Source: Chroococcus sp. CMT-3BRIN-NPC107 (GTDB taxonomy: Bacteria; Cyanobacteriota; Cyanobacteriia; Cyanobacteriales; Chroococcidiopsidaceae). Taken from it: a stretch of DNA of 64,000 bases. Numbering within the stretch: position 1 is the first letter of the stretch; the number at the start of each line of letters is the position of its first letter. This document shows positions 15,191 through 49,363 of the stretch, piece by piece. The notes beneath the pieces were generated by a model, which was not told where the DNA came from, ran no database searches, and saw nothing but the letters and a program-made list of their open reading frames with translations. The stretch is taken from the NCBI GenBank assembly GCA_019359635.1, contig JAHHGY010000008.1, positions 6,768-70,767 on the forward strand. The letters are read 5' to 3'. The translations under genes were made by a program, and so were the position numbers.

Positions 15191-16141
15191 GTGACTATTT
15201 CCGAGCATTGGCAACAAAAAGTTGGTTCGCAACGAGATTGGGTATGGCGCGGCTGGCAAACTCGTTATACTTATGTGCGATCGCCTCAAAAAACAAATAC
15301 GCCGCTAATTTTATTGCACGGGTTTGGAACTTCGATTGGACACTGGCGCAACAATTTAACTGTATTGGGGGAGTTTCATACAGTTTATGCTCTAGATATG
15401 CTGGGTTTTGGCGCTTCAGAAAAACCTGCAATTAATTACAATGTCGAGCTTTGGGTAGAGCAAGTTTACGATTTTTGGCGGACTTTTATTAATACACCAG
15501 TAGTATTAGTTGGTAATTCTACGGGTTCCTTGGTAACTTTGGCGATCGCCCAGGTTCATCCGGAAATGGTCGCAGGTATCTCTATGCTGAGTTTACCGGA
15601 TTTGTCGGTGCGCGAAGATGCTGTACCTAAGTTACTCCGTCCGGTGGTTTCTAGTATTGAAAGTTTGGTAGCTTCAAAGCTATTACTTAAAACTATATTT
15701 CGCGTCGTAAATCGACCGGGAATAGTAAAAAAATGGGCGGCTATGGCTTACTCTAACCCGGAAGTGGTGACGGATGAATTGGTAGATATTTTACTTGGCC
15801 CAGCGCAAGATCGAGGTAGTGCGAATGCTTTTGCGGGAATTTTAAAAGCCATGGTTGGGGCGGGGTTTGCGCCCAGAGTAAAAAATGTGTTGCCGAGCTT
15901 AAAAGTACCGATATTATTAATTTGGGGACAGCAAGACCGGATGGTTCCTCATAGTTTTGCGCGTCAATTTGCTGATTACAATCCCCAGTATGCCCAGCTA
16001 GTCAGTCTAGAAAATGTCGGGCATTGTCCCCATGATGAATGTCCAGATATTGTTAATCAGGCTCTTTTAGACTGGATTAATGGTTTTAGTAATAAAGGTG
16101 ATGTTGGCGCATTGGTGCAAAGCGTACCCCAAGGAAGTTAA
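15191..16141 (+). CDS. Alpha/beta-fold hydrolase
   Basis: LLHGFG, DMLGFGAS, GNSTG nucleophile elbow, GHCPHDE. Confidence 0.9.
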   Translation: MTISEHWQQKVGSQRDWVWRGWQTRYTYVRSPQKTNTPLILLHGFGTSIGHWRNNLTVLGEFHTVYALDMLGFGASEKPAINYNVELWVEQVYDFWRTFINTPVVLVGNSTGSLVTLAIAQVHPEMVAGISMLSLPDLSVREDAVPKLLRPVVSSIESLVASKLLLKTIFRVVNRPGIVKKWAAMAYSNPEVVTDELVDILLGPAQDRGSANAFAGILKAMVGAGFAPRVKNVLPSLKVPILLIWGQQDRMVPHSFARQFADYNPQYAQLVSLENVGHCPHDECPDIVNQALLDWINGFSNKGDVGALVQSVPQGS

Positions 16142-23869: not shown

Positions 23870-24426
23870 AGAAATTTTCTCACAGTTTTACTGCTTAAGT
23901 TGTTGGCGATTGTGTTTTTACAAAGACTGATCTAATTACACATTTTTTGCTCAATTTAGTGCTTAAAATGCCTATACTTAGTACTTAAAAATAATTACTC
24001 TTAATCTAGATTATTATTTGGGCTAACAGTCTTGAAACTTTCTTATAGCAACGAATCTATTTAGCAATCTTTTTGATATTAGAGTGTCTATAAAATCGCT
24101 GCTCTCTTTGTTAGAGTAATTGATGTTGACAAGCATTCACAATGAATTTTCTTTTGATTGACTAATCAATTATTTTGATGTTGAAAAAACCATCGTTTGT
24201 TTGGGCTTTTTCAATCTATTTCTTGAGTTAGATTCAATTTAAAAAATAGCTATAAATTTAACGATATATACTTCTACATCTCTCTCTAGTAAGATTTTAT
24301 TTATTAGGTTAAGCTTGCTCTAACAATAGTTTCAAGCTTTATCTGTAAATTGTTTGTCTTAATTTATACGAGTAATTATAATTGAATTATAAGAAACAGA
24401 TAATTTTCTGCAATACCAATTACTAA

Positions 24427-25797
24427 TTATTTTGTAAGATGTTGAAGAATCAAGTTGCAAACATCGGTAGCTGCAATAGTATTTACCTTTAGCAAATTAG
24501 TTTTTTGAGTAATAAATATTGGTTCTTCTTGAGGAGAAACATTAATTGCCCCATGAGAGCCACGTACTAAAGTAGCATCCATTGGTATAACATCCATTAA
24601 GTAGCGAAAACCTAGCTTTTTCTGTAACAGTTTTAACCCAACTTTAACTTTAGGTAATTTGATTTGTGGATTGATAAATAGTTCCACCGGATCGTAGCCT
24701 GGCTTGCGGTGAATATCCACAGTAGAGGCAAAATCCGGTGCTAAAGAATCGTTTAACCAATAATAATAAGTAAACCAACTATTCGGTGCAGCGATCGCTA
24801 CCAATTCTCCAGAACGCGAATGATTGAGATGGTAAGCTGTTTTATCATCTTCTAAAACCTGTGCCACACCTGGAGTTGATTCTAAGATATCTTTGACTTT
24901 AGGTATATAAGTGCGATCGCTTACGTATATGTGAGCAACTTGGTGATCTGCAACCGCAAAAGCCGAACTTGCACCAGGATCGAGCAATTCGCGCCCCAAT
25001 TCTTCCCTGATGGCTAATAAACCATTTTCCCGCAACACGCGGTTTAAGTGGACTGGTTGCGAAACATCAGTAATACCGTACTCTGATAAGACAATAACCT
25101 CAGCATTTCGATCTTCGTAGTAAGCAATCAAATCGCCACAAATAGCGTCAATTTCTTGCAAATCTTTGTGGATTTGGCTGTTTTTAGTGCCAAGACGTTG
25201 TAAGCAGTAATCTAGGTGAGGTAAATAAACCAAAGTTAGTGTCGGATTGTAGCGTTCTTCCGTCCATTTAGCACTATCTGCAATCCATTTACTAGAGGCG
25301 ATAGTAGTGTTAGGGCCCCAAAAATTGAATAAAGGAAATTGACCTAAATCTTTGGTAAGATGCGATCGCATTTCCCCAGGTTGAGTATAGATATCGGGAA
25401 TTTTTTGACCATCGGCGGGATACATAGGACGCGGCGTAACAGCGTAATCCACCGAGGAGTACATATTGTACCACCAGAACAAGTTAGCACAGGTAAAGGA
25501 TGAATCGAGCGATCGCGCCAGATCCCAGATTTTAGGCGCTTGGACTAATTTGTTAGACTGTCGCCAAAACTTTACTTCACACTCATCGCGGAAATACCAG
25601 CCATTTGCTACAATTCCGTGTTCGTCGGGTAATTTACCAGTTAAATAAGTTGCTTGCGCTGTACAAGTAACTGCTGGGAGGACGGGTTTGATGTTGGCTA
25701 ATTGTCCATTTTTTGCCCAACGGGATAAATGAGGGGTGTGTTCTCCGAGTAAGCTAGGTGTTAAACCGACTACGTTTAAAACAACTGTCTTTTTCAT
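24427..25797 (-). CDS. eboF: EboF, alkaline phosphatase/nucleotide pyrophosphatase family
   Basis: VLNVVGLT, PAVTCTAQATYLTG, YLPHLDY, VDIHRKPGYDP, RGSHG; ebo context. Confidence 0.88.
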   Translation of the reverse strand: MKKTVVLNVVGLTPSLLGEHTPHLSRWAKNGQLANIKPVLPAVTCTAQATYLTGKLPDEHGIVANGWYFRDECEVKFWRQSNKLVQAPKIWDLARSLDSSFTCANLFWWYNMYSSVDYAVTPRPMYPADGQKIPDIYTQPGEMRSHLTKDLGQFPLFNFWGPNTTIASSKWIADSAKWTEERYNPTLTLVYLPHLDYCLQRLGTKNSQIHKDLQEIDAICGDLIAYYEDRNAEVIVLSEYGITDVSQPVHLNRVLRENGLLAIREELGRELLDPGASSAFAVADHQVAHIYVSDRTYIPKVKDILESTPGVAQVLEDDKTAYHLNHSRSGELVAIAAPNSWFTYYYWLNDSLAPDFASTVDIHRKPGYDPVELFINPQIKLPKVKVGLKLLQKKLGFRYLMDVIPMDATLVRGSHGAINVSPQEEPIFITQKTNLLKVNTIAATDVCNLILQHLTK

Positions 25798-25927
25798 AGA
25801 GTTTTAGTTAGAGGTAGTTTGAGGGGGTATTGGTTGTGTTGCGATGTGGGGAAACTCCCCTAAAAAAGGGGAAAATATTTTTCGTTAACAAAAAGGCGAA
25901 AGTAGGTTTTTAAGCAGCGATTGTAGA

Positions 25928-27148
25928 CTACGGTTGAATTGCTAAACCTTTTTCTAATACCCACTCATATTCTCTTTGGATAGATGCTAGTAAATCGATT
26001 TTCATTTCTTGGGGTAAAACATCCCAAGTATAGGTTTCAATTTCTAGATGCTGACAAACAGGATTTGCTTGAAGTAGTTGCAAAACTCCCACAATATCGT
26101 CTTGGGTAGACTGTAAAACTTGATAATCATGGATGAAAATGGGAACGTGAAAATGAGTTCGCCACTCTTTAGCTTTTGACTGTTCTAGATGCGGTAAAGC
26201 CGTAACTAAATCAGGGTAATGATGTAATGAACCATCAAAGTTGCGTTCAATTACTTGATGTAGGTAAGTAGATTCAGCAAAAGGACGCAACCGTTCTAGT
26301 AAAACACTTCTATCTAGAGGTAAAGCCGTTTGGATGGCTGCACTTAGTTGAATTTTGCCGATTTTAATGCCAGAGTCTTGAAAACGAGCAAAAACGGTAG
26401 CGGGGTTTTCGTATTCTACTGCAAAATGACAAGTATCGTAGCAAATACGGATATGTTCGAGGAGTTGTGCTTCCGCCAATTCTGTAGAGATATTTAATAA
26501 TTGGGCTAGATGTGCGCCGCCAATGGGGAGTAACCATTTAGTAAAAAAATCGATTACTTCTAGCGAATTTTCAATTAAACCATCGGGTTCGGGTTCGATG
26601 TCTAGATGTATGAGTTTCCCAGTTTGCTGACGAATTGTAACTAATTCGGCGGTGAGAGAAACAAGATAAAGGCAGCTAGAATTAAAGATGTGATTTTCAG
26701 CAGTGCGATCGCCTTTCCACCAAGGTTTGTAAGATAAAGGTAAAGTAGAAATTCCGCCTTCAACGCCTTGGGGTAATAAAGCAGCGAGAATTTTGGTTAA
26801 GTTTAGAGTGTAAGTTAATCTTTCAGGTTTAGACCAATCGGGCGCATAGACTCCATCTTTGACAACCTGGTGATGAAACCCGCCGTAAGGAAAGCCATTA
26901 AGAGTAAAGACATACAAATCTTGTTTTGTTAACCAGGATTGAAATTGAGTTAAATTATCTCCCTCTAATAGTTCTTTTGCAGCAATATTTGCTAAACGCA
27001 GTCCAATACCAAAAGAGTTGTCTGGAGATAAGCGCGACTTGAGAACAGGAATATATTGTTTTAAGTTGGCAAAAACTTCGTGCCAATCTTCACCAGGATG
27101 AATATTAGTACAGTAAGTTAAATGGATATTGTCTTTACCAATTTGCAT
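25928..27148 (-). CDS. eboE: EboE, TIM-barrel (xylose isomerase-like) metabolite traffic protein
   Basis: LTYCTNIHPGE, TLNGFPYGGFH, EPEPDG, CYDTCHFAVEYE, WRTHFHVP, LEIETYTW. Confidence 0.92.
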   Translation of the reverse strand: MQIGKDNIHLTYCTNIHPGEDWHEVFANLKQYIPVLKSRLSPDNSFGIGLRLANIAAKELLEGDNLTQFQSWLTKQDLYVFTLNGFPYGGFHHQVVKDGVYAPDWSKPERLTYTLNLTKILAALLPQGVEGGISTLPLSYKPWWKGDRTAENHIFNSSCLYLVSLTAELVTIRQQTGKLIHLDIEPEPDGLIENSLEVIDFFTKWLLPIGGAHLAQLLNISTELAEAQLLEHIRICYDTCHFAVEYENPATVFARFQDSGIKIGKIQLSAAIQTALPLDRSVLLERLRPFAESTYLHQVIERNFDGSLHHYPDLVTALPHLEQSKAKEWRTHFHVPIFIHDYQVLQSTQDDIVGVLQLLQANPVCQHLEIETYTWDVLPQEMKIDLLASIQREYEWVLEKGLAIQP

Positions 27149-27262
27149 AAGTTTTATTGAAATCGTAAATAAAGATGTTCAATCATGCACGTGATGTGGG
27201 TTCGATACTAGGAGCGTAATTTTTTGCGTCCATACCGACCAATTTTTATTAAAAATTCAAAA

Positions 27263-27309
27263 AAAGCAGATTAAACTGTCAACAATTCTCCAACAGCATC
27301 CCAATATAT
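27263..27309 (-). repeat. Diverged duplicate of the eboD 3' end
   Basis: 41/47 identical to 27438-27484; encodes IYWDAVGELLTV* versus IYWDAIRELLAV*. Confidence 0.8.
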
Positions 27310-27366
27310 TAAAAGACTAGGCTACAACACCGAGAACTAGGTCTATTGCTAAAACCTACCGAGCTT

Positions 27367-27425
27367 AAAGACAAGACCTTTTGCAGGGGGTTTGGGGGGC
27401 AGACCCCCCAATTCTTGGTTTTTCT
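27367..27425 (+). repeat. G-rich dispersed repeat, copy 2
   Basis: aagacaagaccttttgcagggggtttggggggcagaccccccaattcttggtttttct, with internal hairpin ttgggggg-caga-ccccccaa. Confidence 0.75.
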
Positions 27426-27445
27426 TCAAAATTTAGCAAAGCAGA

Positions 27446-28639
27446 TCAAACTGCCAACAATTCCCTGATAGCATCCCAATATATAGACACATCAACCTCA
27501 TGCACCTCAACCCCTTGCCCAATACCTTGCAACAACATCAAAGTAAGTTCACCGCCTAAGTGTTCTCTAAACTCCGTCAACCCTGCAAGCAAACATCGAG
27601 AAGAAGGAGGAGAATTGAGTTGTTCGGCAAGTTCTGGAACAGATAGAGTAAAACCAACAGCCTTAAGGGTATTAATAATTTGTTTCCACTCAGTTTTTGA
27701 TAGCAGCCCAGACAAGTAAGAATAAGTGCTATCTAAAGCAATCCCAATAGCTACGGCCTCCCCATGTCGCAAGCGAAAATCAGTTAATTGCTCTAACTTA
27801 TGGGCTGCCCAGTGACCAAAATCGAGAGGACGAGAAGAACCAGATTCAAAAGCATCGCCGCTAGTAGCAATATGTTCTAAATGCAACTGAGCGCAACGGT
27901 AAATCAATTGCTGCATAGATTCCATATCTCGCTGCGCCAAGTTTTTCGCATTAGACAAGATAAATTCAAAGAAATCCAAGTCTTTAATTAAAGCTACCTT
28001 AATTCCTTCAGCAATGCCCGATCGCCAATCGCGATCGCTCAATGTAGTCAAAAAGTCAAAATCATTTAAAACAGAGTAAGGCGGGGCAAAACTGCCTAAA
28101 AAGTTCTTTTTACCAAAAGCATTAATCCCATTTTTTACCCCTACGGCCGAATCATTTTGCGCCAATACCGTTGTGGGAATGCGAATTAGTCGTATACCCC
28201 GATGTGCTGTAGCGGCGGCGTAACCTACCATATCTAACACCGCGCCACCACCAATTGCTAAAACGTAGGAATGACGACACAACCCGACTTTACTAATAAC
28301 TTCGTGAATATCAGTTAATAATTGCGGATCGTTCTTAGCAGCCTCTCCCCCAGGAACTACAATCGGTTCGGTAGCTAAAGTTAGTACCTCACTATAAAAA
28401 TTAGTGTAGTCGGCGATTTGGGCAAGTAGGTGGGGATGATGTTCAATTAAACCAGAATCGACAATTGCGATCGCTCTTTTTGTTTCGCCACCATCGGCAA
28501 CAATCGTTTGCGCTAGTAAAGGATTTCCTATTTGAAATAAACCGTTTGTAAACAGCACATCATAACGAAAACTAACCGGAACACATTGCTGAATTGGTTT
28601 TAGAGTGTAAGAGATTTTTGATTTAGTGTTAGTTACCAT
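27446..28639 (-). CDS. eboD: EboD, 3-dehydroquinate synthase-like sugar-phosphate cyclase
   Basis: IGGGAVLD, PTTVLAQNDS, KNGIN, RPLDFGHWAAHKLE, LRHGEAVAIG; start placed at MVTNTK (28639). Confidence 0.88.
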   Translation of the reverse strand: MVTNTKSKISYTLKPIQQCVPVSFRYDVLFTNGLFQIGNPLLAQTIVADGGETKRAIAIVDSGLIEHHPHLLAQIADYTNFYSEVLTLATEPIVVPGGEAAKNDPQLLTDIHEVISKVGLCRHSYVLAIGGGAVLDMVGYAAATAHRGIRLIRIPTTVLAQNDSAVGVKNGINAFGKKNFLGSFAPPYSVLNDFDFLTTLSDRDWRSGIAEGIKVALIKDLDFFEFILSNAKNLAQRDMESMQQLIYRCAQLHLEHIATSGDAFESGSSRPLDFGHWAAHKLEQLTDFRLRHGEAVAIGIALDSTYSYLSGLLSKTEWKQIINTLKAVGFTLSVPELAEQLNSPPSSRCLLAGLTEFREHLGGELTLMLLQGIGQGVEVHEVDVSIYWDAIRELLAV

Positions 28640-28655
28640 AGTTATTAAATAATTT

Positions 28656-29285
28656 CTATAAAGATGCGGAAAATTCTGGCTGCATTGCTTGGACAAATAC
28701 ATCTACCGACTGCGAACCACTGATGCTAACTTTGTTGTTGATGACAAAAAACGGCACGCTGCTTATACCTCGCTCTCTTGCCGCTTTTGCTTCTTCCCTA
28801 ACTTCAGCTAATGCCGCATCGCTAGTTAATTGCTGCTTTAGTTTACTTTCATCAAAGCCAAAACCTTTACCCAGACGAACTAAAACATCAATATCGCCAA
28901 TATTTAACCCATCTTCAAAGTAAGCTTTATAGACGGCTTCGACAATGACGTTTTTATGGGTTTTTGGTGTTAGGGCAATAAGTCGATGAGAAAGCGTTGT
29001 ATTTACAGCTAATAAAACCTTGTCAAAATCTAGCTTTACGCCAGCCTTTGCGCCAGATTGAGTTGCATAGTCAAATAGTTGCGTTAATTGATTTGCACCT
29101 ATACCTTTTCGCAGCTTCATAAATGAGCGAAACCCAACACCTTCAGCAGGAATCGTGTCGTCTAAAAGAAAAGGATGCCAACGTATATCTATTGTCTCTC
29201 CTATTAGCGCGATCGCATCAAACAGTTGTTTTTTGCCAATCCGACACCAAGGACAAGCCGTATCGTGAAAAATGTCAATTAACAT
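28656..29285 (-). CDS. DsbA/FrnE-family thioredoxin-fold oxidoreductase
   Basis: DTACPWCRIG (CxxC), GISSVPFF cis-Pro loop, SGSQ; no signal peptide. Confidence 0.88.
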   Translation of the reverse strand: MLIDIFHDTACPWCRIGKKQLFDAIALIGETIDIRWHPFLLDDTIPAEGVGFRSFMKLRKGIGANQLTQLFDYATQSGAKAGVKLDFDKVLLAVNTTLSHRLIALTPKTHKNVIVEAVYKAYFEDGLNIGDIDVLVRLGKGFGFDESKLKQQLTSDAALAEVREEAKAARERGISSVPFFVINNKVSISGSQSVDVFVQAMQPEFSASL

Positions 29286-29288
29286 GAT

Positions 29289-30191
29289 TTAAGTTACAGC
29301 AAATACTTTTGCTAAAGCTATAGAAACAATAGACAAACCCAGCACCACTAAACCGTAGAAAAAGCCAGCAAAACCCGCCGCCATACTCGCATCTAAGATA
29401 ATTAGCGACAAAACCCCAGCTTTTACAGCTTTACGGATAATATCGGCACTAGGAACTTGCATGGCAGCAATAAAAGGTGGAAATACTCGCCAACTTAATA
29501 ATGCTAGAAATGGTAAAACTGCAAAAATATAGTAATTGGGCAGAAATACTAAAGCTAAAACTCCACCGAGAGCGATCGCAAGTAATACTAAAGCTAGTTT
29601 CCCCGTGCTACTTTTGCCGCCATGTACTTCGCCGCGACTAATGGCTGTAACTGCGGCAATATAAAAAATAGGAATGAGTGCTAAAAACCATAGTTTCCCA
29701 ACCATTGTAGGAATTGCACTCACGCCCAAAAGTAAATTGCCACCACGACAAAGACCCATATTTATAGGACTTGCGATCGCATTGTGTTTGTTCCAGGCAT
29801 CGTAAATTATTGCCCCGATTGCCACAAATACCGCAATTTCCGCACTTAGTAAGGAAACTTGAGCCGCCGCCAATACGCCTACAGTTAGTAGTAAAATCCC
29901 TAAAATAGTTGCGCCAAGTATAGATGCTTTACCTGTCGGAATCGGTCTTTCCGGGCGTTCTACGGCATCTAACTTAGCATCAAAAACATCGTTAAATACT
30001 ACACCGCCGCCATAAAGCCCTGTTGTAGCCAGGATTAACCAAGCTAAGGGAATATCTATTATTGCACCAGAAGCCGCAAAACCTGTAAGAATATCTGCCC
30101 AAGCTGTAACAATATTTGCTGGGCGCATTGTTTGCAAATATGCCCAAATACGAGTATTTAGACGGTAATTTGGCTTTAATAAAGTAGTCAT
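29289..30191 (-). CDS. eboC: EboC, UbiA-family prenyltransferase
   Basis: MRPANIVTAWAD, NDVFDAKLDAVERPERPIP; multiple TM helices. Confidence 0.92.
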   Translation of the reverse strand: MTTLLKPNYRLNTRIWAYLQTMRPANIVTAWADILTGFAASGAIIDIPLAWLILATTGLYGGGVVFNDVFDAKLDAVERPERPIPTGKASILGATILGILLLTVGVLAAAQVSLLSAEIAVFVAIGAIIYDAWNKHNAIASPINMGLCRGGNLLLGVSAIPTMVGKLWFLALIPIFYIAAVTAISRGEVHGGKSSTGKLALVLLAIALGGVLALVFLPNYYIFAVLPFLALLSWRVFPPFIAAMQVPSADIIRKAVKAGVLSLIILDASMAAGFAGFFYGLVVLGLSIVSIALAKVFAVT

Positions 30192-30200
30192 TTGTTACCT

Positions 30201-31106
30201 TTACTCAATTAAGGCGTAATTATTCACCGTTTCTACTAATGGCTCTTGTCCGCGCAATACAGAATTGTCATTAAAAGATTGACGTTGGTCGATAGGCTGA
30301 GGGGTTAACCAGTCAGATTCTTTCATTTGTCCGCTTTGGCTGTAAGCAGTTAAAGCATTTTTGTAGCAAACAGTGTTGACATAATCGGCAGAGATGCCTC
30401 GATCTAACATTAATTGAGCCGTTTTTGGTACTGCCAGAGGGTCGCTAATGCCCCAATCAGCGCTGCTATCAACAATAATGTGATCGCACCCGTACTGACG
30501 CACAACTTCCACCATCCGCGCGTTACCCATCTTTGTATGAGGATAAATTGTAAAGGCTGCCCAAAAACCTCTATCTAAAACTTCTTTGACTGTTTCCTCG
30601 TTATTGTGGTCAATAATTACCTTAGTAGGATCTACCCCATGCTCGACTACAACATCCATACTCCGGCTAGTTCCAGCTTTTTTATTGCGATGGGGGGTGT
30701 GAATTAACACCACCATATCTAATTCTTTAGCTAGTTCTAGCTGCGCTCGAAAACATTTATCTTCAGCCTCTGTCATGTCATCGTAGCCAATCTCGCCAAT
30801 GGCAACAACACCCTCTTTACAAGCAAATAAGGGCAGCAATTCTAATACTTCTGTCGCCAAAGCTTCGTTATTTGCTTCTTTAGGATTTAAACCAATAGTG
30901 CAGTAATGTTGAATCCCAAATTGCGCCGAACGAAAACGTTCCCAACCTACCAAGCTACTAAAATAGTCTTGAAAAGATCCGGCATTAGTGCGGGGTTGTC
31001 CTAGCCAAAAAGCAGGCTCAATTACCGCCACAATGCCTGATTCGCGCATAATCAAATAATCGTAAGTTGTCCGCGCGGTCATGTGAATATGAGGATCGAT
31101 AAACAT
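30201..31106 (-). CDS. eboB: EboB, TatD-family hydrolase
   Basis: MFIDPHIHM, IEPAFWLGQPR, GEIGYD, IHTPH, IIDHNNE, DSSADWG; start placed at 31106. Confidence 0.9.
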   Translation of the reverse strand: MFIDPHIHMTARTTYDYLIMRESGIVAVIEPAFWLGQPRTNAGSFQDYFSSLVGWERFRSAQFGIQHYCTIGLNPKEANNEALATEVLELLPLFACKEGVVAIGEIGYDDMTEAEDKCFRAQLELAKELDMVVLIHTPHRNKKAGTSRSMDVVVEHGVDPTKVIIDHNNEETVKEVLDRGFWAAFTIYPHTKMGNARMVEVVRQYGCDHIIVDSSADWGISDPLAVPKTAQLMLDRGISADYVNTVCYKNALTAYSQSGQMKESDWLTPQPIDQRQSFNDNSVLRGQEPLVETVNNYALIE

Positions 31107-31111
31107 AGTTA

Positions 31112-31810
31112 TTATTTTTTTGCTTTTATAACTTCTACTAATTGCCAAAGTTCTGGCGATACAGTGCGATTAGCCGCCAATCTTTCGTTGGCATAATCGG
31201 TTAACATTTGAGCTAGAGTTAGATTAGCGCGGAGTTCCAAGCCTTGAATATGCCGCAAAGAACTACCCACAAATAGCGCTTTAAGTACCATTTGATTCCA
31301 GGCCAATTCGTCAAAATAATCTTGGGGATAGGGGTTGTATGATGCGATCGCATTAAATACCGGAATCATGTTACTCCGCACCCCTTCTGTTGCCCGAAAC
31401 CGATACTGTTCTGGGTATGGTAATAAAGGCAATGCTTGATAAAGGGCGACTAATTCCCCCATATCGGCGGTAGTAAAAAGCTGCTCTAAAACTTGTAAAT
31501 ATTCTTGAGCGTTATTGTGAGGCAGCGCCAGTAATAGTAAAGTTCGGGCGGTTTGTTCGCTATTCCAGAGTTGAGGATGCCAATACGATCGCATTTCTTG
31601 GGCGGCTTGCAATTGTTCCGTTGTTAGCGATAACTTTTCTTTGCCCACGTAGCGAGGTACGGCGCTAAAAGATGTAAAAAATACTCTTTTGGCTGCACCC
31701 TCAGCAATAAGTTGACATTTGCTATCCAGCCAAGCCAAACCTTCATTGGTTGTATGCTGTGCAACCCAACTACGGAGTAAATCGGACTTATTGGCGATCG
31801 CAATTTTCAT
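31112..31810 (-). CDS. eboA: EboA family protein
   Basis: ELVALYQALPLL, ATEGVRSN, NPYPQDYFDELAWNQMVLKALF, YANERLAANRTV. Confidence 0.9.
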   Translation of the reverse strand: MKIAIANKSDLLRSWVAQHTTNEGLAWLDSKCQLIAEGAAKRVFFTSFSAVPRYVGKEKLSLTTEQLQAAQEMRSYWHPQLWNSEQTARTLLLLALPHNNAQEYLQVLEQLFTTADMGELVALYQALPLLPYPEQYRFRATEGVRSNMIPVFNAIASYNPYPQDYFDELAWNQMVLKALFVGSSLRHIQGLELRANLTLAQMLTDYANERLAANRTVSPELWQLVEVIKAKK

Positions 31811-31917
31811 TGAATTACCTTAAATTACTAAAGCGGTCACTGTTTCAGCGCGTCCAAGCTAAAGCACTAATTTTTATTCGCAGAAAAATTAGTGTTTTAT
31901 TGACTAAAGCTCAATTT

Positions 31918-32808
31918 TTAGTTTTTCCAATTAAGCTTGCTTTTTGCCTTAAATTTTTTTGACCAACAGAAATAAACCAATCCCAACGCCAACACTGGTA
32001 GCACAGAATGTGGTTCGGGGACGGGTTCGCTAGATACAGGGCCATTTTCGACACAGCTAAAAAAGCAGTGATTAGGATTGCCTGTTCCGTCGTTACCACG
32101 AGAAAGGATAAGTTCCTCAAAAGTTTGGCTACCGTCAGCATCAAGATTGCCAGTTAATACGGTAAATTCTCCGCCAAAATTGCCTGTTAACGAATCAATC
32201 AAATTGTCAACGTTTGACTTCAATTCTGGAAACAATGTTTCTAGGGTGGTGAAGTTTTGACTTGCGCCACTAGCAACATCATCGCCGAGAAACCAGTTGC
32301 CATTACCAATAACTATGTTGTTGTCAGTAAATACCCAATTGCCATTACCGATGACTACATTATTGTTGCCAAAATCCCAGTTGCCATTGCCAATGGTTGA
32401 ATTATCGCTACTAAAACTCCAATTGCCATTGCCAAGAGTAGAATTATCACTACTGGTTTTCAAATACCAGTTACCGTTACCAATGGTGGTGTTATAACTT
32501 GACTCATCTCGAAACCAGTTGCCATTACCAATAGTGGCGTTATAACTTGACTCATCTCGAAGCCAATTGCCATTACCAATAGTGGCATTGTTGCTACTCA
32601 AGTTCCAATTGCCAGTTCCAATAGCAGCGTTGTTGCTACCTAAATCGTGGTTGGCTATAAAGGGATTTTTGCCACCCGCAAAGGGGTTTTCGCCAGTAGT
32701 TAAAGGACTACCACCAGCAAAAGGGTTGCTACTACCGCCATCAGTAGAGGAATTACCGTCACCATTACCAATAACTACGTTGTCGATACTAGGTTCATTA
32801 GCTGCCAT
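31918..32808 (-). CDS. Uncharacterised PEP-CTERM protein with eight IGNGNW-type repeats (predicted beta-roll)
   Basis: 296 aa; NPF motifs, then eight GNW units at 14-16 aa period; C-terminal VPEP + hydrophobic + basic tail; no N-terminal signal peptide. Confidence 0.8.
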   Translation of the reverse strand: MAANEPSIDNVVIGNGDGNSSTDGGSSNPFAGGSPLTTGENPFAGGKNPFIANHDLGSNNAAIGTGNWNLSSNNATIGNGNWLRDESSYNATIGNGNWFRDESSYNTTIGNGNWYLKTSSDNSTLGNGNWSFSSDNSTIGNGNWDFGNNNVVIGNGNWVFTDNNIVIGNGNWFLGDDVASGASQNFTTLETLFPELKSNVDNLIDSLTGNFGGEFTVLTGNLDADGSQTFEELILSRGNDGTGNPNHCFFSCVENGPVSSEPVPEPHSVLPVLALGLVYFCWSKKFKAKSKLNWKN

Positions 32809-32926: not shown

Positions 32927-33472
32927 TTATTTGTTAAAAACTTTTGCTGCCTTTCGTTGTTGCCGAAATTTAGTGGCGGCAATTCCCATACCAATTACTA
33001 CTAAACCTAGTATCGACGAAGGTTCGGGTACTGGAGTACTACCACCATGACCGGGCAATCCTGGGAAGTCGCGATCGCCCAGAAAAGGAGGTATGCTACC
33101 ACCACCAGGTAACTCTACAGGAAAAGGATTATTAGCTCCGGTTGGCAACTCTACAGGAAAAGGATTATTAGTCCCAATTGGTAAGCTACCACCAGTACCG
33201 GAGTTACTACCTATGGGGTTAGAAGGGTTCATACCACCAGCAAATAGGTTCCAGAAGTTGTCACCCGCAAAAGGATTCCCACCATAAGGCGAATTTTCAT
33301 TAAGAGGAGAGCCACCACTAGCAAAGGGATTGCTGCCACCAAAGCCGCCAACATTACCAAAAATATCTTCTACAGTCAGATTATTACCATCCGCTCCTTG
33401 AATATCTAACAACGGACCGAAGGGAGATTGCCTAAGCAATTCGTTTAAGTCTTGGGTGGTATTATCAGCCAT
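32927..33472 (-). CDS. Uncharacterised Gly/Pro/Asn-rich PEP-CTERM protein with NPF repeats
   Basis: ATG at 33472 preceded by AGGAG; GGSNPF, GGNPF, NNPFPVELP x2; C-terminal PVPEPSSILGLVVIGMGIAATKFRQQRK. Confidence 0.8.
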   Translation of the reverse strand: MADNTTQDLNELLRQSPFGPLLDIQGADGNNLTVEDIFGNVGGFGGSNPFASGGSPLNENSPYGGNPFAGDNFWNLFAGGMNPSNPIGSNSGTGGSLPIGTNNPFPVELPTGANNPFPVELPGGGSIPPFLGDRDFPGLPGHGGSTPVPEPSSILGLVVIGMGIAATKFRQQRKAAKVFNK

Positions 33473-33607
33473 TTGTTTTACTCCTGTTGGTTTTAATCTC
33501 AATACTTAGAGAAATCTGTTCAAAAAAGGCTTTCCGTTTGTACTCAATGCCAAGGAGCAGAAACATTGTGAAGTTATCTCGCCTCTGCTCCTGTGATTAA
33601 ATGGTGC

Positions 33608-41598: not shown

Positions 41599-42439
41599 CT
41601 GCTTTGGTGAAATTTTTTACGATAGATGCAGACCTAACGTGGGGCTTCAGGTAACAAATGTACGGGATGTCTACTTGTAGCTGCAATGAATATTTTATCG
41701 ATCGCTATGTCAATTCTTTTGATGATGCTAACGCTAAAAACCTTACGTTTACTTGGATCTAAGATTTATTCCCTTTGGTAGATACTCGGCAAAGGTCGTC
41801 GATTTTAGAGTTTGAACAATTTGTATGTTTTGTTACTTAAAGGTGTTAATAACTACAAATATTAAGCTTTGTAAGGCAATCTGCGTAACTTGCTTAACGG
41901 TATTGATAGATACTAAGACAATTAATATGACTTGTATCTTTTGAGAGAAGATATCTTCACTTTGGCAGAGTTAGGTTTATGAGGATTTTAATAACAGTTA
42001 AGTTATTTCTGTGTAGTAATCTCTACTAAAAACTATAAATAGTTTTTAGAAAAAAATAGCTGACAGATGCAAATATTAGTAGTAATAAAGTTTTTAGGTA
42101 TTAAATTTAACCTATTAAACCCCTTACTATGCCGGAGATACGTAACTTTTATAAAGAAGCGCGCTCGCATCATAATTAAGCTAAGTTGTTCTTTTTATAC
42201 TGATTGACAAGTCATTTATATTTTGTTAGCTTAGTACGCTTTTTTCAGCAAATCAAATAAAAATTTAAGTTGTACATATCTTAGACACATCTTTTACAAA
42301 AATAAAGTATTTACTAGATAAAGTTTTGTTAAGCTGCTTTATATAGTTGGGCGAATAAAGAACAAATCTAAGTTTGCTAAAAAGTGGAGGAGACTGCATC
42401 GCTTGCCCATTGAAGTTATAGAAAGGAGTGTAGAGAACT

Positions 42440-45242: not shown

Positions 45243-45602
45243 TTAGTCAACTTCTACTGAATCTGTATTTACTTCTGTTGCACCATTAACTCTTTGAGCA
45301 ACCGAAACCATTTTATTGAGAAGTTGTTGACTTGGGGCTTTACCTTTCAAAACTACAACGCTACCAGTTTGAGCAACGTAAATAGTCTCAATATCATCCA
45401 AGTCTGGCTCCTCGTCAAATTCTAAAGCTACGCGCTTGGCTAATCCGCTTTGATCGTATTCGCCGCTTAGTCCCCTACGTTCGGGGGGAATAGATTCGCC
45501 CGCAGGTGCAGCTTGAGCTTGAGGTGCAGATTGCTGTTGTGGAGCGTAGGAAGGAGCATTTTGAGGTTTTTCCATCCCAAACAAACGTTTTAACCAACCC
45601 AT
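45243..45602 (-). CDS. BON-domain (phospholipid-binding) protein
   Basis: MGWLKRLFG start; GEYDQSGLAKRVA, VAQTGSVVVLKG, VAQRVNGATEV. Confidence 0.75.
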   Translation of the reverse strand: MGWLKRLFGMEKPQNAPSYAPQQQSAPQAQAAPAGESIPPERRGLSGEYDQSGLAKRVALEFDEEPDLDDIETIYVAQTGSVVVLKGKAPSQQLLNKMVSVAQRVNGATEVNTDSVEVD

Positions 45603-45795
45603 AGTTATTTTTCTCCCTGATATAGACAACTTTAACTAAGCATAATTTATTCTGTTTATACATCCATTAAGAGAGAGAAGCTTTATTTTTTCTCTGCTGA
45701 TTGTGGCGCAATCGAGCTAGAATAAAGTGCTAAAACGGTGCTGCTTGAACTGAAGTTGGCGGTACGCGATCGCATAAAATCAAGCCTGAATAGCC

Positions 45796-46314
45796 GTGAA
45801 ACATACATTGTCAGTTTTAGTAGAAGATGAAGCCGGGGTTTTGTCCCGCATTGCTGGTTTATTTGCCCGTCGCGGCTTTAATATTGAAAGCCTCGCCGTA
45901 GGAGCCGCCGAGCAAGGGGGAGTATCTCGAATTACAATGGTTGTACCTGGAGACGAGCAGATTATTGAGCAGTTGACAAAGCAGTTGTACAAGCTCGTAA
46001 ACGTGCTAAAAGTTCAAGATATTACCGAGATTCCCTGTGTAGAGCGAGAATTGATGCTACTAAAGGTAAACGCCAGTAGCGCCAATCGTTCGGAAATTAT
46101 TGGGTTAGCGCAAATATTTCGGGCGCGAGTCGTGGATGTAGCGGAAGATTCGCTAACTTTAGAAGTAGTAGGCGATCCCGGTAAAATGGTAGCGATCGTG
46201 CAAGTATTAGAAAAGTTTGGGTTGAAAGAAATTGCCCGTACGGGCAAAATTGCTCTTACCCGCGAATCGGGAGTTAATACAGAGTTGCTGAAGTCTTTAC
46301 AAGCTAGGGTTTAA
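45796..46314 (+). CDS. ilvN: Acetolactate synthase small subunit
   Basis: [48 protein letters not shown]. Confidence 0.96.
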
Positions 46315-46344
46315 TGACTGCTTTGAGGCGAACAAACTGTTCGC

Positions 46345-46396
46345 CTACTTAAGATAAATCAGCAAATTCAACCCTGGAATCGTGCGCGATAAAGTC
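46345..46396 (-). repeat. Direct-repeat copy of the 3' end of the 47207-49363 gene
   Basis: 50/52 identical to 47207-47258; both encode TLSRTIPGLNLLIYLK*. Confidence 0.92.
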
Positions 46397-46415
46397 TATA
46401 ACCCAAAGTAAAACA

Positions 46416-46862
46416 TTATTTAGGTTGAATTGTTTGAGGAGAAATCGCTACAATTTCTGAAAAACGGGTAAAATCATCAACGTTAAAAGTTAATAAGTGA
46501 GAGATTTTATAAGTAATCATTGCCGCTACCAATCGGGCATCATGTCCTTGTTTGCCTTTGACTTGATACTTAATTACTAAATCTTCCCAGACTGTCAAAA
46601 CTGAAGGGCTACTAGCCTTAATTGCGAACAGTTGCTTCAAAAGAGTCATTTCATGAGTTGCTTCTTCTACGGTCAATCCTAGCCCATTGACATTGGCTGG
46701 ACGGGTAGCAACAACCCAAAACTCAAATAAATTTTGTGGCACTATGTTTAGCTCAATACCTTGCTGTAGCAGCCTATTAATAGCATTCTGAGCTTGAGGA
46801 TATTGCGAGTCACGAGAGTTGATTAATCGTAACAAAACATTTGTGTCCACCAGATAACTCAT
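46416..46862 (-). CDS. vapC: PIN-domain toxin (VapC-like)
   Basis: YLVDTNVL, QNLFEFW, HDARLVA, LLTFNVDDF acidic PIN residues. Confidence 0.88.
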   Translation of the reverse strand: MSYLVDTNVLLRLINSRDSQYPQAQNAINRLLQQGIELNIVPQNLFEFWVVATRPANVNGLGLTVEEATHEMTLLKQLFAIKASSPSVLTVWEDLVIKYQVKGKQGHDARLVAAMITYKISHLLTFNVDDFTRFSEIVAISPQTIQPK

Positions 46863-47146
46863 AACTGAGCATCTTCTCTTTCGCGGTAAATGCTTTCACG
46901 CCCAGTCGCATCTTCTGACAGTGACGGAGCTTGAGCCAACGAAGGGCTTTTTCCCAACGCCTTGAGTAAAGGTAGTCTATTTTTGGGAGCGGCTAGGCGA
47001 TCGCTTTGTTGCTCTGGTTGCAACGAGAATACGCAGCCCTCAATCAGTATTTCTAGCAAATGTTCTACAGAAACGCTTTGAGCCTTTGCCTGAGCCAGCA
47101 ATCGAGCCTCTATTTCTGGTTTTAACTCAATAGTAATACTCATCAC
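46859..47146 (-). CDS. Putative antitoxin
   Basis: 95 aa; SITIELKPEIEARL ribbon-helix-helix-like start; SLSEDATGRESIY tail; 4-nt overlap with PIN gene. Confidence 0.75.
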   Translation of the reverse strand: MMSITIELKPEIEARLLAQAKAQSVSVEHLLEILIEGCVFSLQPEQQSDRLAAPKNRLPLLKALGKSPSLAQAPSLSEDATGRESIYREREDAQL

Positions 47147-47206
47147 TTCTCCTAAATTGGCATTGACACAACAACTTTGGTTTCTTCCTCTATTGTACTA
47201 AGGAGT

Positions 47207-49363
47207 CTACTTCAAATAAATCAGCAAATTCAACCCTGGAATCGTGCGCGATAAAGTCCACAATAGCAGCGTTAAATAAAGCAAACCAATCACCCACTCA
47301 TACCAAGCAAGGGTAGTAACAATTCCTGGTAAATGTTCGTCCCGCAGCCGGATATCGTTAAAACCTAACTTCAGCAAATTATTTAAACTAAAATCGTAGT
47401 AATTTAGCCAATTCCAGCGATTTGACCATAATACAGGCATATAACGCTCTCTAAATAGCGGAAATCGCGGCATGACTGGCAATCTACCAATTAATAATCT
47501 TAGTTGCCGCATACTGCCATCTTCGACAAAATAGCTGCTATTCATCAAGTCGTGATAGCGTCCTTTTTGATAAAGTCTAGCTACTAAAACTAACGGAATT
47601 GGTAAAACGATCGCTTCTACACAGCCTAAAGTTAAAAATGGTTGGGTTGAGGTGCGAAAAATAGCAATTAATCCAAACAGTATCAATAAGCAAAAACTAC
47701 TGAGTACGCAGCTAGTTTCGTAAACTGTGGGTAAAATCTTTTGCGGGTGCAATCGTCGCCAACGGTCGATTAGCCAAAATATTAACCCAAAATGGGCGAT
47801 CGCAATTGTCCCGACTCCAAACACTAACCAAAAACTCGTACCGTAACGACTAAGCAAGAGCAACAAACCTAAAGCCAACCATTGCCAAGCTAATATTATC
47901 CATTCGGCGGCAGAAATAGGAGAAGTTGCTACCAGGCGATCGCGGACTTTAATATAAGTATTGAGATCGATTTGCTCTAAGCTCAAAACCTCGCTGAGAT
48001 TACGAAAAGGTTGCTCTTGACGATAGGCAGCGATCGCCTTAACTTGAAGGGGTGAAAATCCTAGTTTTAGCAAAGTTGCAGAATTTGCTGTATTAATATT
48101 GATCCCCGACAACCTGCGAAGTAATTCATTGCGGCGCAGCTTTTGAGTAGTGTAATCTAACTGATTGGCATCGCCTATTTGCTGCAATTGTCGAAAGTTT
48201 TGAATCAGATTTCGCAAGACATTTTCATTGCCTTGCAGTATTGGTACTTGAATAACGCTGCCAATTTGTCCGGGATTGCCAAGAATTTTGGCTTCTTCCG
48301 CATCAAAACCCAGATCGGATACGTTTAAATAAGCTGAAGAATTTGCAAAAGCTGCATCGCTAAAATCTGCCTGATTTAAAATACTAGCACCGCGCAAATT
48401 TACCGGGCGATCGAATTGCGTTTCTCGAAACGTTACCGCTTGATTAAAAGTTGCTTCGGTGAGAAACAAAGATTTATAGAAGCGATTTTTTGCAAATAAG
48501 GCTCGATTTGCAAACTGTACTTGCGAAAAATCGGCATTTCCTCGCCATTGCATCCGGTTAAAGCTTGCCCGATCGTTAAACATTGCCTGATTGAAATTGC
48601 CCGTGTCTTCAAAAGTAGCGCCGCTAAAAGTCGCTGCTTCCAGAAATTGAGCTTGATTAAAACCCGCCGTAGAAAAGAAAATACTGCCCCGAAATATTCC
48701 TTGTTTGCGGAAACTCGCCCCCGCAAAGTTGACATTGCGACTAAATCTCGTCTCTGTCCAATTAGAGTTTTGGGTGAATATCGCCCCCGAAGCATCTACA
48801 GGCTGAAGAAAAAAAGTATTAGTAAAATTTGCTTCGCCACTAAAACGAGTCTGCACTAACTTTAAACCGCCGCGAAATACTGTAATTTGGGCAGGGGTAG
48901 CACTTTTTGAACCTAATAGAGACGTGGATAGTTGACTCAATTGAGCATAGCGACGGCGATCGCGTTGCAGTTGTGTTTGTTCTGTAGGCGTAAATATGGG
49001 TGCTAAAGCTTGTCCGTATAGGGGCGATCGCAATCCTAAATTATTCCCCACAAAATCCCCCTGAATCAGAGAATAACTCAAATCTAAGCCTAGAGGACTA
49101 GATCCCGCTCTTTGCAATCCTGCTTGCAGAATTTGCTCAAAATTGGCGCGAAAACCCGTATTTTCTGGGCGCAAGTCGATAATAAAATGCTGTAAATCTA
49201 TGGTGAGGATACCGCCACTTAGTTTTGGCGATTTAACCCTCGATTGCAGCAATTCTAAAGTTAAAACTGTCCGCTCTGGCTGGGCTAAAGCTGCCCATAC
49301 TGGTTGAGGTAAGATGAGCAACACAATTAATAGTGCGATCGCAAGTGTCTTGATTAATCGCAT
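47207..49363 (-). CDS. Pentapeptide-like repeat membrane protein with helix-hairpin-helix segment
   Basis: Signal peptide; A.F..A.F repeats; ININTANSATLLKLG HhH-like segment; C-terminal TM helices. Confidence 0.78.
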   Translation of the reverse strand: MRLIKTLAIALLIVLLILPQPVWAALAQPERTVLTLELLQSRVKSPKLSGGILTIDLQHFIIDLRPENTGFRANFEQILQAGLQRAGSSPLGLDLSYSLIQGDFVGNNLGLRSPLYGQALAPIFTPTEQTQLQRDRRRYAQLSQLSTSLLGSKSATPAQITVFRGGLKLVQTRFSGEANFTNTFFLQPVDASGAIFTQNSNWTETRFSRNVNFAGASFRKQGIFRGSIFFSTAGFNQAQFLEAATFSGATFEDTGNFNQAMFNDRASFNRMQWRGNADFSQVQFANRALFAKNRFYKSLFLTEATFNQAVTFRETQFDRPVNLRGASILNQADFSDAAFANSSAYLNVSDLGFDAEEAKILGNPGQIGSVIQVPILQGNENVLRNLIQNFRQLQQIGDANQLDYTTQKLRRNELLRRLSGININTANSATLLKLGFSPLQVKAIAAYRQEQPFRNLSEVLSLEQIDLNTYIKVRDRLVATSPISAAEWIILAWQWLALGLLLLLSRYGTSFWLVFGVGTIAIAHFGLIFWLIDRWRRLHPQKILPTVYETSCVLSSFCLLILFGLIAIFRTSTQPFLTLGCVEAIVLPIPLVLVARLYQKGRYHDLMNSSYFVEDGSMRQLRLLIGRLPVMPRFPLFRERYMPVLWSNRWNWLNYYDFSLNNLLKLGFNDIRLRDEHLPGIVTTLAWYEWVIGLLYLTLLLWTLSRTIPGLNLLIYLK

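What the first reader, a model, noticed from the sequence alone, without database searches (positions are those of the whole stretch)
31918..32808. Trp-ladder beta-roll protein with PEP-CTERM tail inside the scytonemin cluster
Seen: eight tandem units of consensus N-x-x-I-G-N-G-N-W-x-x-x-x at 14-16 aa period, each with an invariant Trp. A near-perfect 48-bp DNA duplication (32491-32513 vs 32539-32561) shows recent expansion, and the protein ends in VPEP-TM-basic. Known: 7+7 NxxxG coils form beta-rolls, as in ryegrass ice-binding protein. Inference: in that register the Trp residues stack in one exposed row, giving a flat aromatic surface. It could bind or template the planar scytonemin pigment, bind sheath polysaccharide, or absorb UV itself. 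I do not recognise this gene from the described Nostoc punctiforme scy operon.
Basis: partly seen in the sequence, partly recalled or inferred. Interest (0 to 1): 0.82.

Follow-up and report, generated by a model that had tools for sequence, protein, structure and literature searches.

The report
Overlooked tryptophan-faced scytonemin-regulon protein
An unnamed cyanobacterial protein family, found almost only in genomes with the sunscreen (scytonemin) genes and preceded by the same promoter box even when it lies far from them, is predicted to fold into a small beta-roll with a row of exposed tryptophans that likely binds the pigment and holds it in the sheath.

Summary
The ORF (31918-32808, minus strand, 296 aa) is real. 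It has eight NxxIGNGNW units and a PEP-CTERM-like tail, and lies between scyF (plus one companion ORF) and eboA.

AlphaFold2 gives a 14-residue beta-roll matching ryegrass IBP (Z 16.9, rmsd 1.1 Å) and YadA-type heads; outward Trp is inferred from that register.

The scytonemin link is strong. In 401 genomes, all 28 genuine family carriers have scyC, and none of 369 scyC-negative genomes has a genuine member. The gene occupies six different cluster positions. A 39-bp box learned only from scyA promoters lies upstream of 32 of 35 copies with no scy genes nearby (0 of 35 downstream). One complete genome has four box sites: two at scyA, two at this gene pair 1.3 Mb away.

Verdict: an unnamed accessory member of the scytonemin regulon. 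Pigment binding is the best guess and untested; export route and expression are unknown. Two full clusters lack the gene, so it is probably not essential.

The parts
31918..32808 (-). Trp-roll protein P0001, 296 aa, acidic (28 D/E vs 6 K/R in residues 1-262), no signal peptide
32653..32808 (-). Residues 1-52: Gly/Asn-rich low-complexity region with NPFAGG repeats, low confidence in the model; much longer in relatives
32284..32634 (-). Residues 59-175: eight-coil beta-roll (W68, W82, W98, W114, W130, W144, W158, W172), predicted LpIBP/YadA-head-like
32466..32561 (-). 48-bp tandem duplicate (92% identical): unit 2 overwritten by a copy of unit 3
32101..32253 (-). Residues 186-236: conserved helical region after the roll
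32053..32067 (-). C248-x3-C252 pair, conserved in the 15 closest relatives only; possible disulfide
31918..32025 (-). PEP-CTERM-like tail (PVPEP, membrane helix, basic end); below the Pfam cut-off
32927..33472 (-). Companion ORF (181 aa from ATG; TTG at 33502): signal-less, LRQSPFG motif, NPF repeats, PEP-CTERM. A related ORF lies directly upstream in 60 of 80 related loci, and the motif is fused to the roll in others (L087, L089, L093, L098)
41682..41720 (-). 39-bp scy box upstream of scyA (one of the six PWM training sites); direct repeat with about 21-bp offset, inferred ScyR (AraC-type) site
24138..24176 (-). Second scy box upstream of the cluster's trpE (31.3 bits); the only other site of 20 bits or more in this genome
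33608..41456 (-). scyA-B-C, two ScyD/E-family genes and scyF, upstream on the same strand
24427..31810 (-). eboA, eboB-like, eboC, DsbA-like, aroB/eboD, eboE, eboF-like, downstream on the same strand

Best explanation
This gene belongs to a family that co-occurs with scytonemin genes and shares their promoter box, and its product is predicted to be a beta-roll with an exposed Trp/Phe face that likely binds the water-insoluble pigment and keeps it dispersed in the periplasm or sheath. Shown by sequence comparison: family, co-occurrence, cluster positions and the box. Predicted: the fold. Inferred steps: (1) UV-A activates ScyR, which binds the box; here the gene is read through from the scyA promoter, while most detached copies have their own box. 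(2) The acidic, signal-less protein crosses the inner membrane by an unknown route. Tailed members would use the C-terminal helix as an N-out anchor and be cut by the cyanoexosortase. (3) The stacked W9 row and neighbouring F/W11 row form a flat aromatic strip on which scytonemin or its monomer stacks. The NPF-rich tails and the LRQSPFG companion proteins would form a loose scaffold. The role is accessory, not catalytic and probably not essential.
For: Co-occurrence: in an order-level sample of 401 genomes, 29 hit the family profile. 28 are genuine and all 28 are among the 32 scyC-positive genomes; the 29th (G632) is an unrelated tandem repeat. Two of the four scyC-positive misses (G050, G638) lack EboA and a ScyD/E over cut-off and are other clusters. 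In the overlapping phylum sample, 11 of 12 carriers had scyC; the exception G385 holds a 5'-truncated remnant and lacks ScyC, ScyD/E and EboA. A profile of distant members hit 28 of 331 genomes: 25 scyC-positive, 3 unrelated. Linkage: 18 of 28 carriers have the gene within 40 kb of scyC, in six positions: scyF|eboA, scyF|trpE, trpD|trpE, after trpD-aroG, upstream of scyA, after eboF. Box: a PWM from six scyA promoters scores 16 bits or more upstream of 32 of 35 loci with no scy/ebo/trp hit in their flanks; downstream 0 of 35, antisense maximum 7.5, column-shuffled PWMs 0. Genome-wide pattern sites: G095 has four (two at scyA, two at the gene pair 1.28 Mb away); G549 has four (scyA, trpE, an LRQSPFG gene, the roll gene). 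Fold: pLDDT 85, pTM 0.80; 3ULT Z 16.9, rmsd 1.1 Å over 113 residues; the Atlas model also lists grass antifreeze and YadA rolls first. In NXVXG the X positions are exposed (PMC5744647, passage). W9 is replaced by R/K/Q/T, and in distant members the opposite face turns polar while W/F persists. A cyanoexosortase A is encoded in this genome. How scytonemin crosses the outer membrane is called undefined in PMC12188702 (Discussion).
Against: No binding, expression or localisation data. No signal-like hydrophobic stretch in 0 of 72 complete relatives, and only 44 of 72 pass my PEP-CTERM test, so export is not shown. G145 and G225 have full clusters without the family, and G355 (scyC-positive, cluster not inspected) also lacks it. 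Nodularia spumigena carries the family, although the Nodularia strain tested in PMC2726228 made no scytonemin. Side-chain directions were not read from coordinates. Position 10, inward in the LpIBP register, is variable and often polar (N22, D14, H13, L13, Q10 %), which would also fit Trp pointing inward. The full-length AlphaFold2 model (pLDDT 68) appears mirror-handed (3ULT rmsd 8.2 Å). Most of the 35 detached loci are Nostoc and are not independent; several have short flanks; 3 of 35 lack the box. G578 has no pattern match.
Confidence: 0.47

Rival explanations
1. A UV-induced sheath structural protein. It is co-regulated with scy, but its aromatic row binds polysaccharide, as Trp platforms do in carbohydrate-binding modules, and thickens or tethers the sheath that receives the pigment.
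For: PEP-CTERM proteins link cells to EPS (PMC12188702, intro and Discussion). UV-A elicits both pigment and capsule (PMC6282210, passage). The nearest folds include adhesin heads. All genomic evidence fits equally well.
Against: The family was found only in scy genomes apart from one remnant, although sheaths are far more widespread (recalled). No EPS gene was among the recurrent neighbours I annotated.
Confidence: 0.24
2. A cytoplasmic or inner-membrane-face carrier or scaffold. It is never exported; it sequesters the monomer or indole intermediates, or clusters ScyABC with the Ebo exporter, possibly as a condensate of NPF/Gly tails.
For: No signal peptide in 0 of 72, and 28 of 72 fail the tail test. 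In three genomes the ScyD/E-like protein is also signal-less and acidic, one with a related LLEESPFG motif.
Against: PVPEP and a Cys pair are kept in the closest relatives, and the basic residues follow the membrane helix, which favours N-out topology (positive-inside rule, recalled). YidC can move negatively charged N-tails, though the examples in the passages seen are small proteins (PMC9360617).
Confidence: 0.17
3. A protein sunscreen: the Trp row itself absorbs UV.
For: Invariant stacked Trp and co-regulation with a UV response.
Against: Trp absorbs near 280 nm, not in UV-A, and can photosensitise (recalled); only 10 of 296 residues are Trp.
Confidence: 0.04
4. An ice-binding or desiccation protein that travels with the cluster without touching the pigment.
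For: The best structural match is LpIBP; distant members have a Thr/Asn/Ser-rich face.
Against: In this protein the outward positions carry W, F/L/R and I/L/V rather than Thr/Ser arrays. Detached copies keep the scy box. No Pfam family but a weak PEP-CTERM match at E 0.1.
Confidence: 0.04

Closest known systems
Lolium perenne ice-binding protein, PDB 3ULT (LbR_Ice_bind, PF21300)
   Same: 14-residue coils of 7+7 NxxxG; predicted superposition Z 16.9, rmsd 1.1 Å, 113 residues, 25% identity.
   Different: Outward positions carry W and F/W on one face and A/T and I/L/V on the other; three 16-residue coils; helical region, PEP-CTERM tail and NPF tail; sequence match not significant (E 3).
YadA-type trimeric autotransporter heads (AtaA 3WP8, UspA1 3NTN, CbpF 9GH4, YadA 1P9H; PF05658)
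   Same: Same-handed beta-roll, Z 11.4-13.1, rmsd 1.5-2.2 Å; the NxTIG strand resembles their SxAIG strand.
   Different: No signal peptide, stalk or beta-barrel anchor found; the Ile face is polar in distant members; trimer not established.
ScyD, ScyE, ScyF (PEP-CTERM proteins of the scy operon; NF033206, NF035926)
   Same: Same cluster and strand; PEP-CTERM-type tail.
   Different: They are beta-propellers with hydrophobic signal peptides (score 1.9-2.4 vs 0.3 here); this protein matches neither model.
NpR1259, last gene of the N. punctiforme cluster
   Same: Unknown membrane protein after aroG, the position this family and its companion hold in many Nostocales (PMC2726228).
   Different: Described with two membrane helices and no orthologue in Anabaena, Nodularia or Lyngbya. 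I could not obtain its sequence, so identity with the companion or roll family is untested.
WspA of Nostoc commune / N. flagelliforme
   Same: Matrix protein proposed to interact with scytonemin (PMC7997468, passage): a functional analogue.
   Different: Characterised as a beta-galactosidase (PMC8445988, search listing); no sequence comparison was made.

Membership tests
PEP-CTERM/exosortase substrate | C-terminal PEP motif, membrane helix, basic cluster | tested here: met
   Seen directly; PVPEP invariant in A1; but below the Pfam cut-off (13.6 vs 20.7 bits)
PEP-CTERM/exosortase substrate | N-terminal Sec signal peptide | tested here: not met
   Hydropathy proxy 0.34; 0 of 72 complete relatives reach 1.6, ScyD/E/F controls 1.9-2.4. 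A proxy, not SignalP.
PEP-CTERM/exosortase substrate | Exosortase in the genome | tested here: met
   CrtA TIGR03763 270.9 bits, over cut-off; CrtB not over cut-off
PEP-CTERM/exosortase substrate | Cleavage of the tail and export | not testable with these tools
   Needs proteomics
Grass ice-binding beta-roll (PF21300) | 14-residue beta-roll fold | tested here: met
   (predicted models); the full-length model appears mirror-handed
Grass ice-binding beta-roll (PF21300) | NxVxG repeats with outward Thr/Ser/Val ice-binding face | tested here: not met
   Outward positions are W 100%, F 91%, I/L/V 99% in 260 distinct 14-mers; no Pfam hit
Trimeric autotransporter (YadA-like) | Left-handed beta-roll head | tested here: met
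Trimeric autotransporter (YadA-like) | Signal peptide and C-terminal beta-barrel anchor | tested here: not met
   Neither present
Trimeric autotransporter (YadA-like) | Homotrimer | tested here: inconclusive
   Complex job returned no answer
Scytonemin regulon | Co-occurrence and clustering with scy genes | tested here: met
Scytonemin regulon | Shared promoter element with scyA | tested here: met
   Detached copies. In the window there is no box between scyF and the gene, so read-through is inferred.
Scytonemin regulon | UV-A and ScyR-dependent transcription; pigment phenotype | not testable with these tools
   No expression or mutant data for this family were obtained

The most novel reading that the evidence does not exclude
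Scytonemin has an unrecognised fifth module: signal-peptide-less acidic proteins (Trp-faced beta-rolls plus LRQSPFG/NPF scaffolds), switched on through a ScyR box, that carry the insoluble pigment out of the periplasm and array it in the sheath. This would be the missing carrier or matrix of the sunscreen, exported by a non-canonical route, and the box would define the wider regulon.
Probability: 0.3. Interest if true: 0.88.

Novelty: new variant of a known kind. Interest (0 to 1): 0.72.

Why it matters
How scytonemin crosses the outer membrane and associates with the sheath is described as undefined, and heterologous hosts have made only the monomer (PMC12188702, Discussion). This family is a concrete candidate for that gap and can be tested by knockout and binding assays. 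The 39-bp box is a candidate ScyR site; a 2021 review calls finding the UV-specific cis element crucial for engineering (PMC7997468, passage), and the box predicts further regulon genes. A PEP-CTERM family with no signal peptide is also a test case for how cyanoexosortase substrates reach the envelope.

Tried and rejected
Trimer prediction (3 copies of residues 53-236): no answer, scores 0.00, 0.85, 0.00; used neither way.

Foldseek against PDB: no match at E<=0.001 for either model. Sequence search of PDB: best relevant E 3. Sigma-70 and terminator scan: at chance level. Earlier findings by sequence: nothing.

N. punctiforme orthologue: no record so named among the members listed, so the published scyTCR RNA-seq could not be read for this gene. 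The PMC9127174 supplement yielded only primer text; its Figure S2 heatmap was not visible. 'GNGNW' does not occur in the two PMC12188702 supplements; the protein has few tryptic sites, so this says little.

Dropped as spurious after inspection: G632, G457 and G225 (tandem DNA repeats) and G488 and G514 (an unrelated protein). The weakest G189 hit (two stops inside) was not inspected or counted. In the representatives search, P0139, P0147 and P0151-P0159 were judged unrelated by reading.

Literature: ten searches. 'GNGNW' gave three unrelated papers; 'PEP-CTERM + lack signal peptide + cyanobacteri' gave none; the ScyR motif search gave one paper, whose text gives no promoter motif. Subscription papers, including Naurin 2016 on the regulator, were not searchable, so the box or family may be described there.

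Rejected: recent repeat expansion; a missed upstream start carrying a signal peptide.

Full report
OBSERVATION. The stretch 31918-32808 is one ORF on the minus strand, 296 aa. It reads: 52 residues of Gly/Asn-rich sequence with NPFAGG repeats; eight units N-x-x-[IL]-G-x-G-N-W spaced 14,16,16,16,14,14,14 (shuffle maximum 3 in 10,000); a helical region; a CxxxC pair; and PVPEP, a hydrophobic helix and a basic end. Upstream on the same strand lie scyA, B, C, two ScyD/E genes, scyF and a 181-aa companion ORF; downstream lie the ebo, aroB, dsbA-like and trp genes; the scytonemin kinase is divergent. No Pfam or NCBIfam family covers the protein beyond a sub-threshold PEP-CTERM match.

THE DUPLICATION. 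It is real (32466-32513 vs 32514-32561, 92%) but is not an expansion. All 15 closest homologues align with eight units. Units 2 and 3 share 43 of 48 nt in the window but 31-34 of 48 in four relatives, and window unit 2 resembles unit 3 of the three closest relatives. One unit was overwritten.

FAMILY. The first search gave 147 proteins at E<=0.001, of which 120 were listed; where named they are hypothetical or PEP-CTERM proteins of cyanobacteria, plus one automatic 'PPE family' label. The 50%-cluster search gave 55 hits, including distant members whose strand-1 Ile is polar. Near and distant profiles match each other (probability 99.6%). No member has a signal-like N-terminus: 0 of 72 complete ORFs among 80 loci, against 1.9-2.4 for ScyD/E/F on the same hydropathy proxy. 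In this genome's rough PEP-CTERM list the other full-length entries begin with signal-like sequences by eye; the companion ORF does not. 44 of 72 pass my PEP-CTERM test, which misses some real tails such as L004; many long forms end after the helices. The genome has cyanoexosortase A.

STRUCTURE. AlphaFold2 on residues 53-236 (26-row alignment) gave pLDDT 85 and pTM 0.80. It matches LpIBP 3ULT at Z 16.9, rmsd 1.1 Å over 113 residues, then AtaA, UspA1, CbpF and YadA heads. The full-length model (pLDDT 68) had the same top hit at rmsd 8.2 Å and low rmsd to right-handed helices, which I read as a mirror image. The Atlas model sides with the LpIBP/YadA hand.

TRP DIRECTION. I could not see coordinates. 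Taking the aligned ranges with the 3ULT sequence shown, and assuming its numbering follows that sequence, Gly falls on Gly and N-W-x-F-G falls on N-x-V-x-G, whose X positions are solvent-exposed (PMC5744647, passage). W9 and F/W11 would then form two outward rows. Substitutions agree: W9 goes to R, K, Q or T, and position 4 on the other face becomes N/S/T/E/D in distant members (that regex includes a few off-register matches). Against this, position 10 would point inward yet is variable and often polar. Outward Trp is likely, not shown.

LINK TO SCYTONEMIN: CO-OCCURRENCE. In 401 genomes of the order, 29 hit the family profile and 32 have ScyC; 28 overlap. The one scyC-negative hit is a tandem repeat. 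Of the four scyC-positive misses, G050 and G638 have scyA-like plus scyC in other clusters without EboA; G145 and G225 have full clusters and no family member. I did not verify full clusters in all 28 carriers. The phylum sample, which overlaps the order sample, gave 11 of 12 carriers scyC-positive; the exception G385 has a start-less remnant and no ScyC, ScyD/E or EboA. A distant-member profile over 331 genomes found no genuine member in a scyC-negative genome. Carriers span eight family labels, and presence tracks scyC within genera (g3 1 of 2, g18 1 of 8 for both). Kin are not independent, and only 8-11 candidates per genome were scored.

POSITION. 18 of 28 carriers have the gene within 40 kb of scyC, 4 have it more than 1.2 Mb away, and 6 on other contigs. 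Positions differ: scyF|eboA (window, L002-L004, L089), scyF|trpE (L095), trpD|trpE (L006), after trpD-aroG (many Nostocales, L093), upstream of scyA (L090-L092, L096, L097), after eboF (L098). Among the 80 best GTDB loci, 34 have scy, ebo or trp-cluster genes in their flanks.

SHARED PROMOTER BOX. A motif search on seven scyA upstream regions gave a conserved element; six regions carried it and trained a 39-column PWM; L089, truncated, was dropped. In this genome only two of 6.9 million positions score 20 bits or more: the scyA promoter (training) and the promoter of the cluster's trpE. Of 35 loci with no scy/ebo/trp hit in their flanks, 32 have a sense-strand site of 16 bits or more within 3 kb upstream of the roll gene, typically 250-500 bp before the first gene of the pair. 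Downstream controls gave 0 of 35 and 200 column-shuffled PWMs gave none. Of the other 45 loci, 24 also have their own box and 3 have a downstream site. Five unlinked distant paralogues score 19-30.

A degenerate pattern, designed with both sets of sites in view and so not held out, was then run on whole genomes. It finds four sites in G095 (scyA twice, this pair twice), four in G549 (scyA, trpE, companion-type gene, roll gene), nine in G189, seven in G243 and none in G578. Five more scy genomes have 2-6 sites. Five genomes without a scytonemin cluster have 0-3, none perfect. The box looks like a direct repeat about 21 bp apart, as for AraC-family sites (recalled), and the cluster's regulator has an AraC domain; ScyR binding is inferred. 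In the window no box lies between scyF and this gene, so read-through from scyA is inferred.

MECHANISM. Most likely the protein is made with the pigment under UV-A, reaches the periplasm or sheath, and offers a flat aromatic strip that binds the planar, insoluble pigment, with NPF-rich tails and companions as scaffold (0.47). Rivals: sheath-polysaccharide binding (0.24), a cytoplasmic carrier or scaffold (0.17), Trp as UV absorber (0.04), ice binding (0.04). Membership of the regulon I put near 0.9; the ligand and the export route are the open steps. Two full clusters lack the gene, so it is accessory, as ScyD and ScyF are (PMC9796282, passage).

COMPARISON WITH THE KNOWN. It folds like LpIBP and YadA heads but fails defining features of both families, and it is a non-canonical PEP-CTERM protein without a signal peptide. 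The passages I read describe scy, trp/aro, ebo, regulator and exosortase modules without this family: PMC2726228 (parts 2-3 of 5), PMC7997468 (passages), PMC6282210 (passages), PMC13308351 (passages; its synteny figure has unnamed shared genes that I could not see), PMC12188702 (abstract, introduction, passages, Discussion, supplement rows), PMC9127174 (passages, one results section, supplement text), PMC13707963 (abstract and a term search). NpR1259 may be related; untested.

VERDICT. Real feature; unnamed family; strong genomic evidence that it belongs to the scytonemin regulon; predicted beta-roll with a likely exposed Trp face; function untested. New variant of a known kind, interest 0.72.

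Noticed in passing
L103:2142-5828, L104:2034-5222, L105:1583-4963: In G534, G562 and G613 a single 1060-1230 aa signal-less, tail-less, very acidic (D+E 18-20%) ScyD/E-like protein stands between scyC and the ebo genes in place of scyD-F. L103's has a GDSL lipase domain and an LLEESPFG motif.
   Followed up: partly
L109 (G638:C42), L110 (G050:C92): scyA-like and scyC genes without scyB, scyD-F or ebo, next to a P450 or an RPE65-type oxygenase: probably other indole-phenol pathways.
   Followed up: partly
L134, L127 (about 220 bp after the box); L137, L141: Other genes led by the scy box: a low-complexity protein with FDFDKYGIPKEGS-type repeats in G189 and G243, and a gene with a signal-like start in G189. 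Candidate further regulon members.
   Followed up: no
L086 vs window 15191-16141 and 45243-50352: In G095 the detached gene pair sits between hydrolase/BON-like/ilvN and pentapeptide-HhH/Zn-dehydrogenase genes that by their N-terminal sequences resemble those flanking the whole scy cluster in the window. The pair may mark the ancestral scy site.
   Followed up: partly
window 31860-31899: AT-rich 16-bp inverted repeat just after the stop codon, before eboA; possible terminator or RNA-stability hairpin.
   Followed up: no
window 32782-32801 and 32998-33017: 20-nt arms, 90% complementary, linking the start of this ORF with the PEP-CTERM end of the companion ORF; probably chance.
   Followed up: no
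L081 (G385:C1:1134848-1135168): Start-less remnant of the family with three coils left, in a complete genome lacking scy genes.
   Followed up: yes
L083-L085, L088, L099: A second, tail-less paralogue with polar strand 1, unlinked to scy but box-led, in Nostoc-like and own-family genomes.
   Followed up: partly
window 46416-46862: A 148-aa ORF that looks like a PIN-domain toxin (recalled motif, not scanned) between ilvN and the pentapeptide gene.
   Followed up: no
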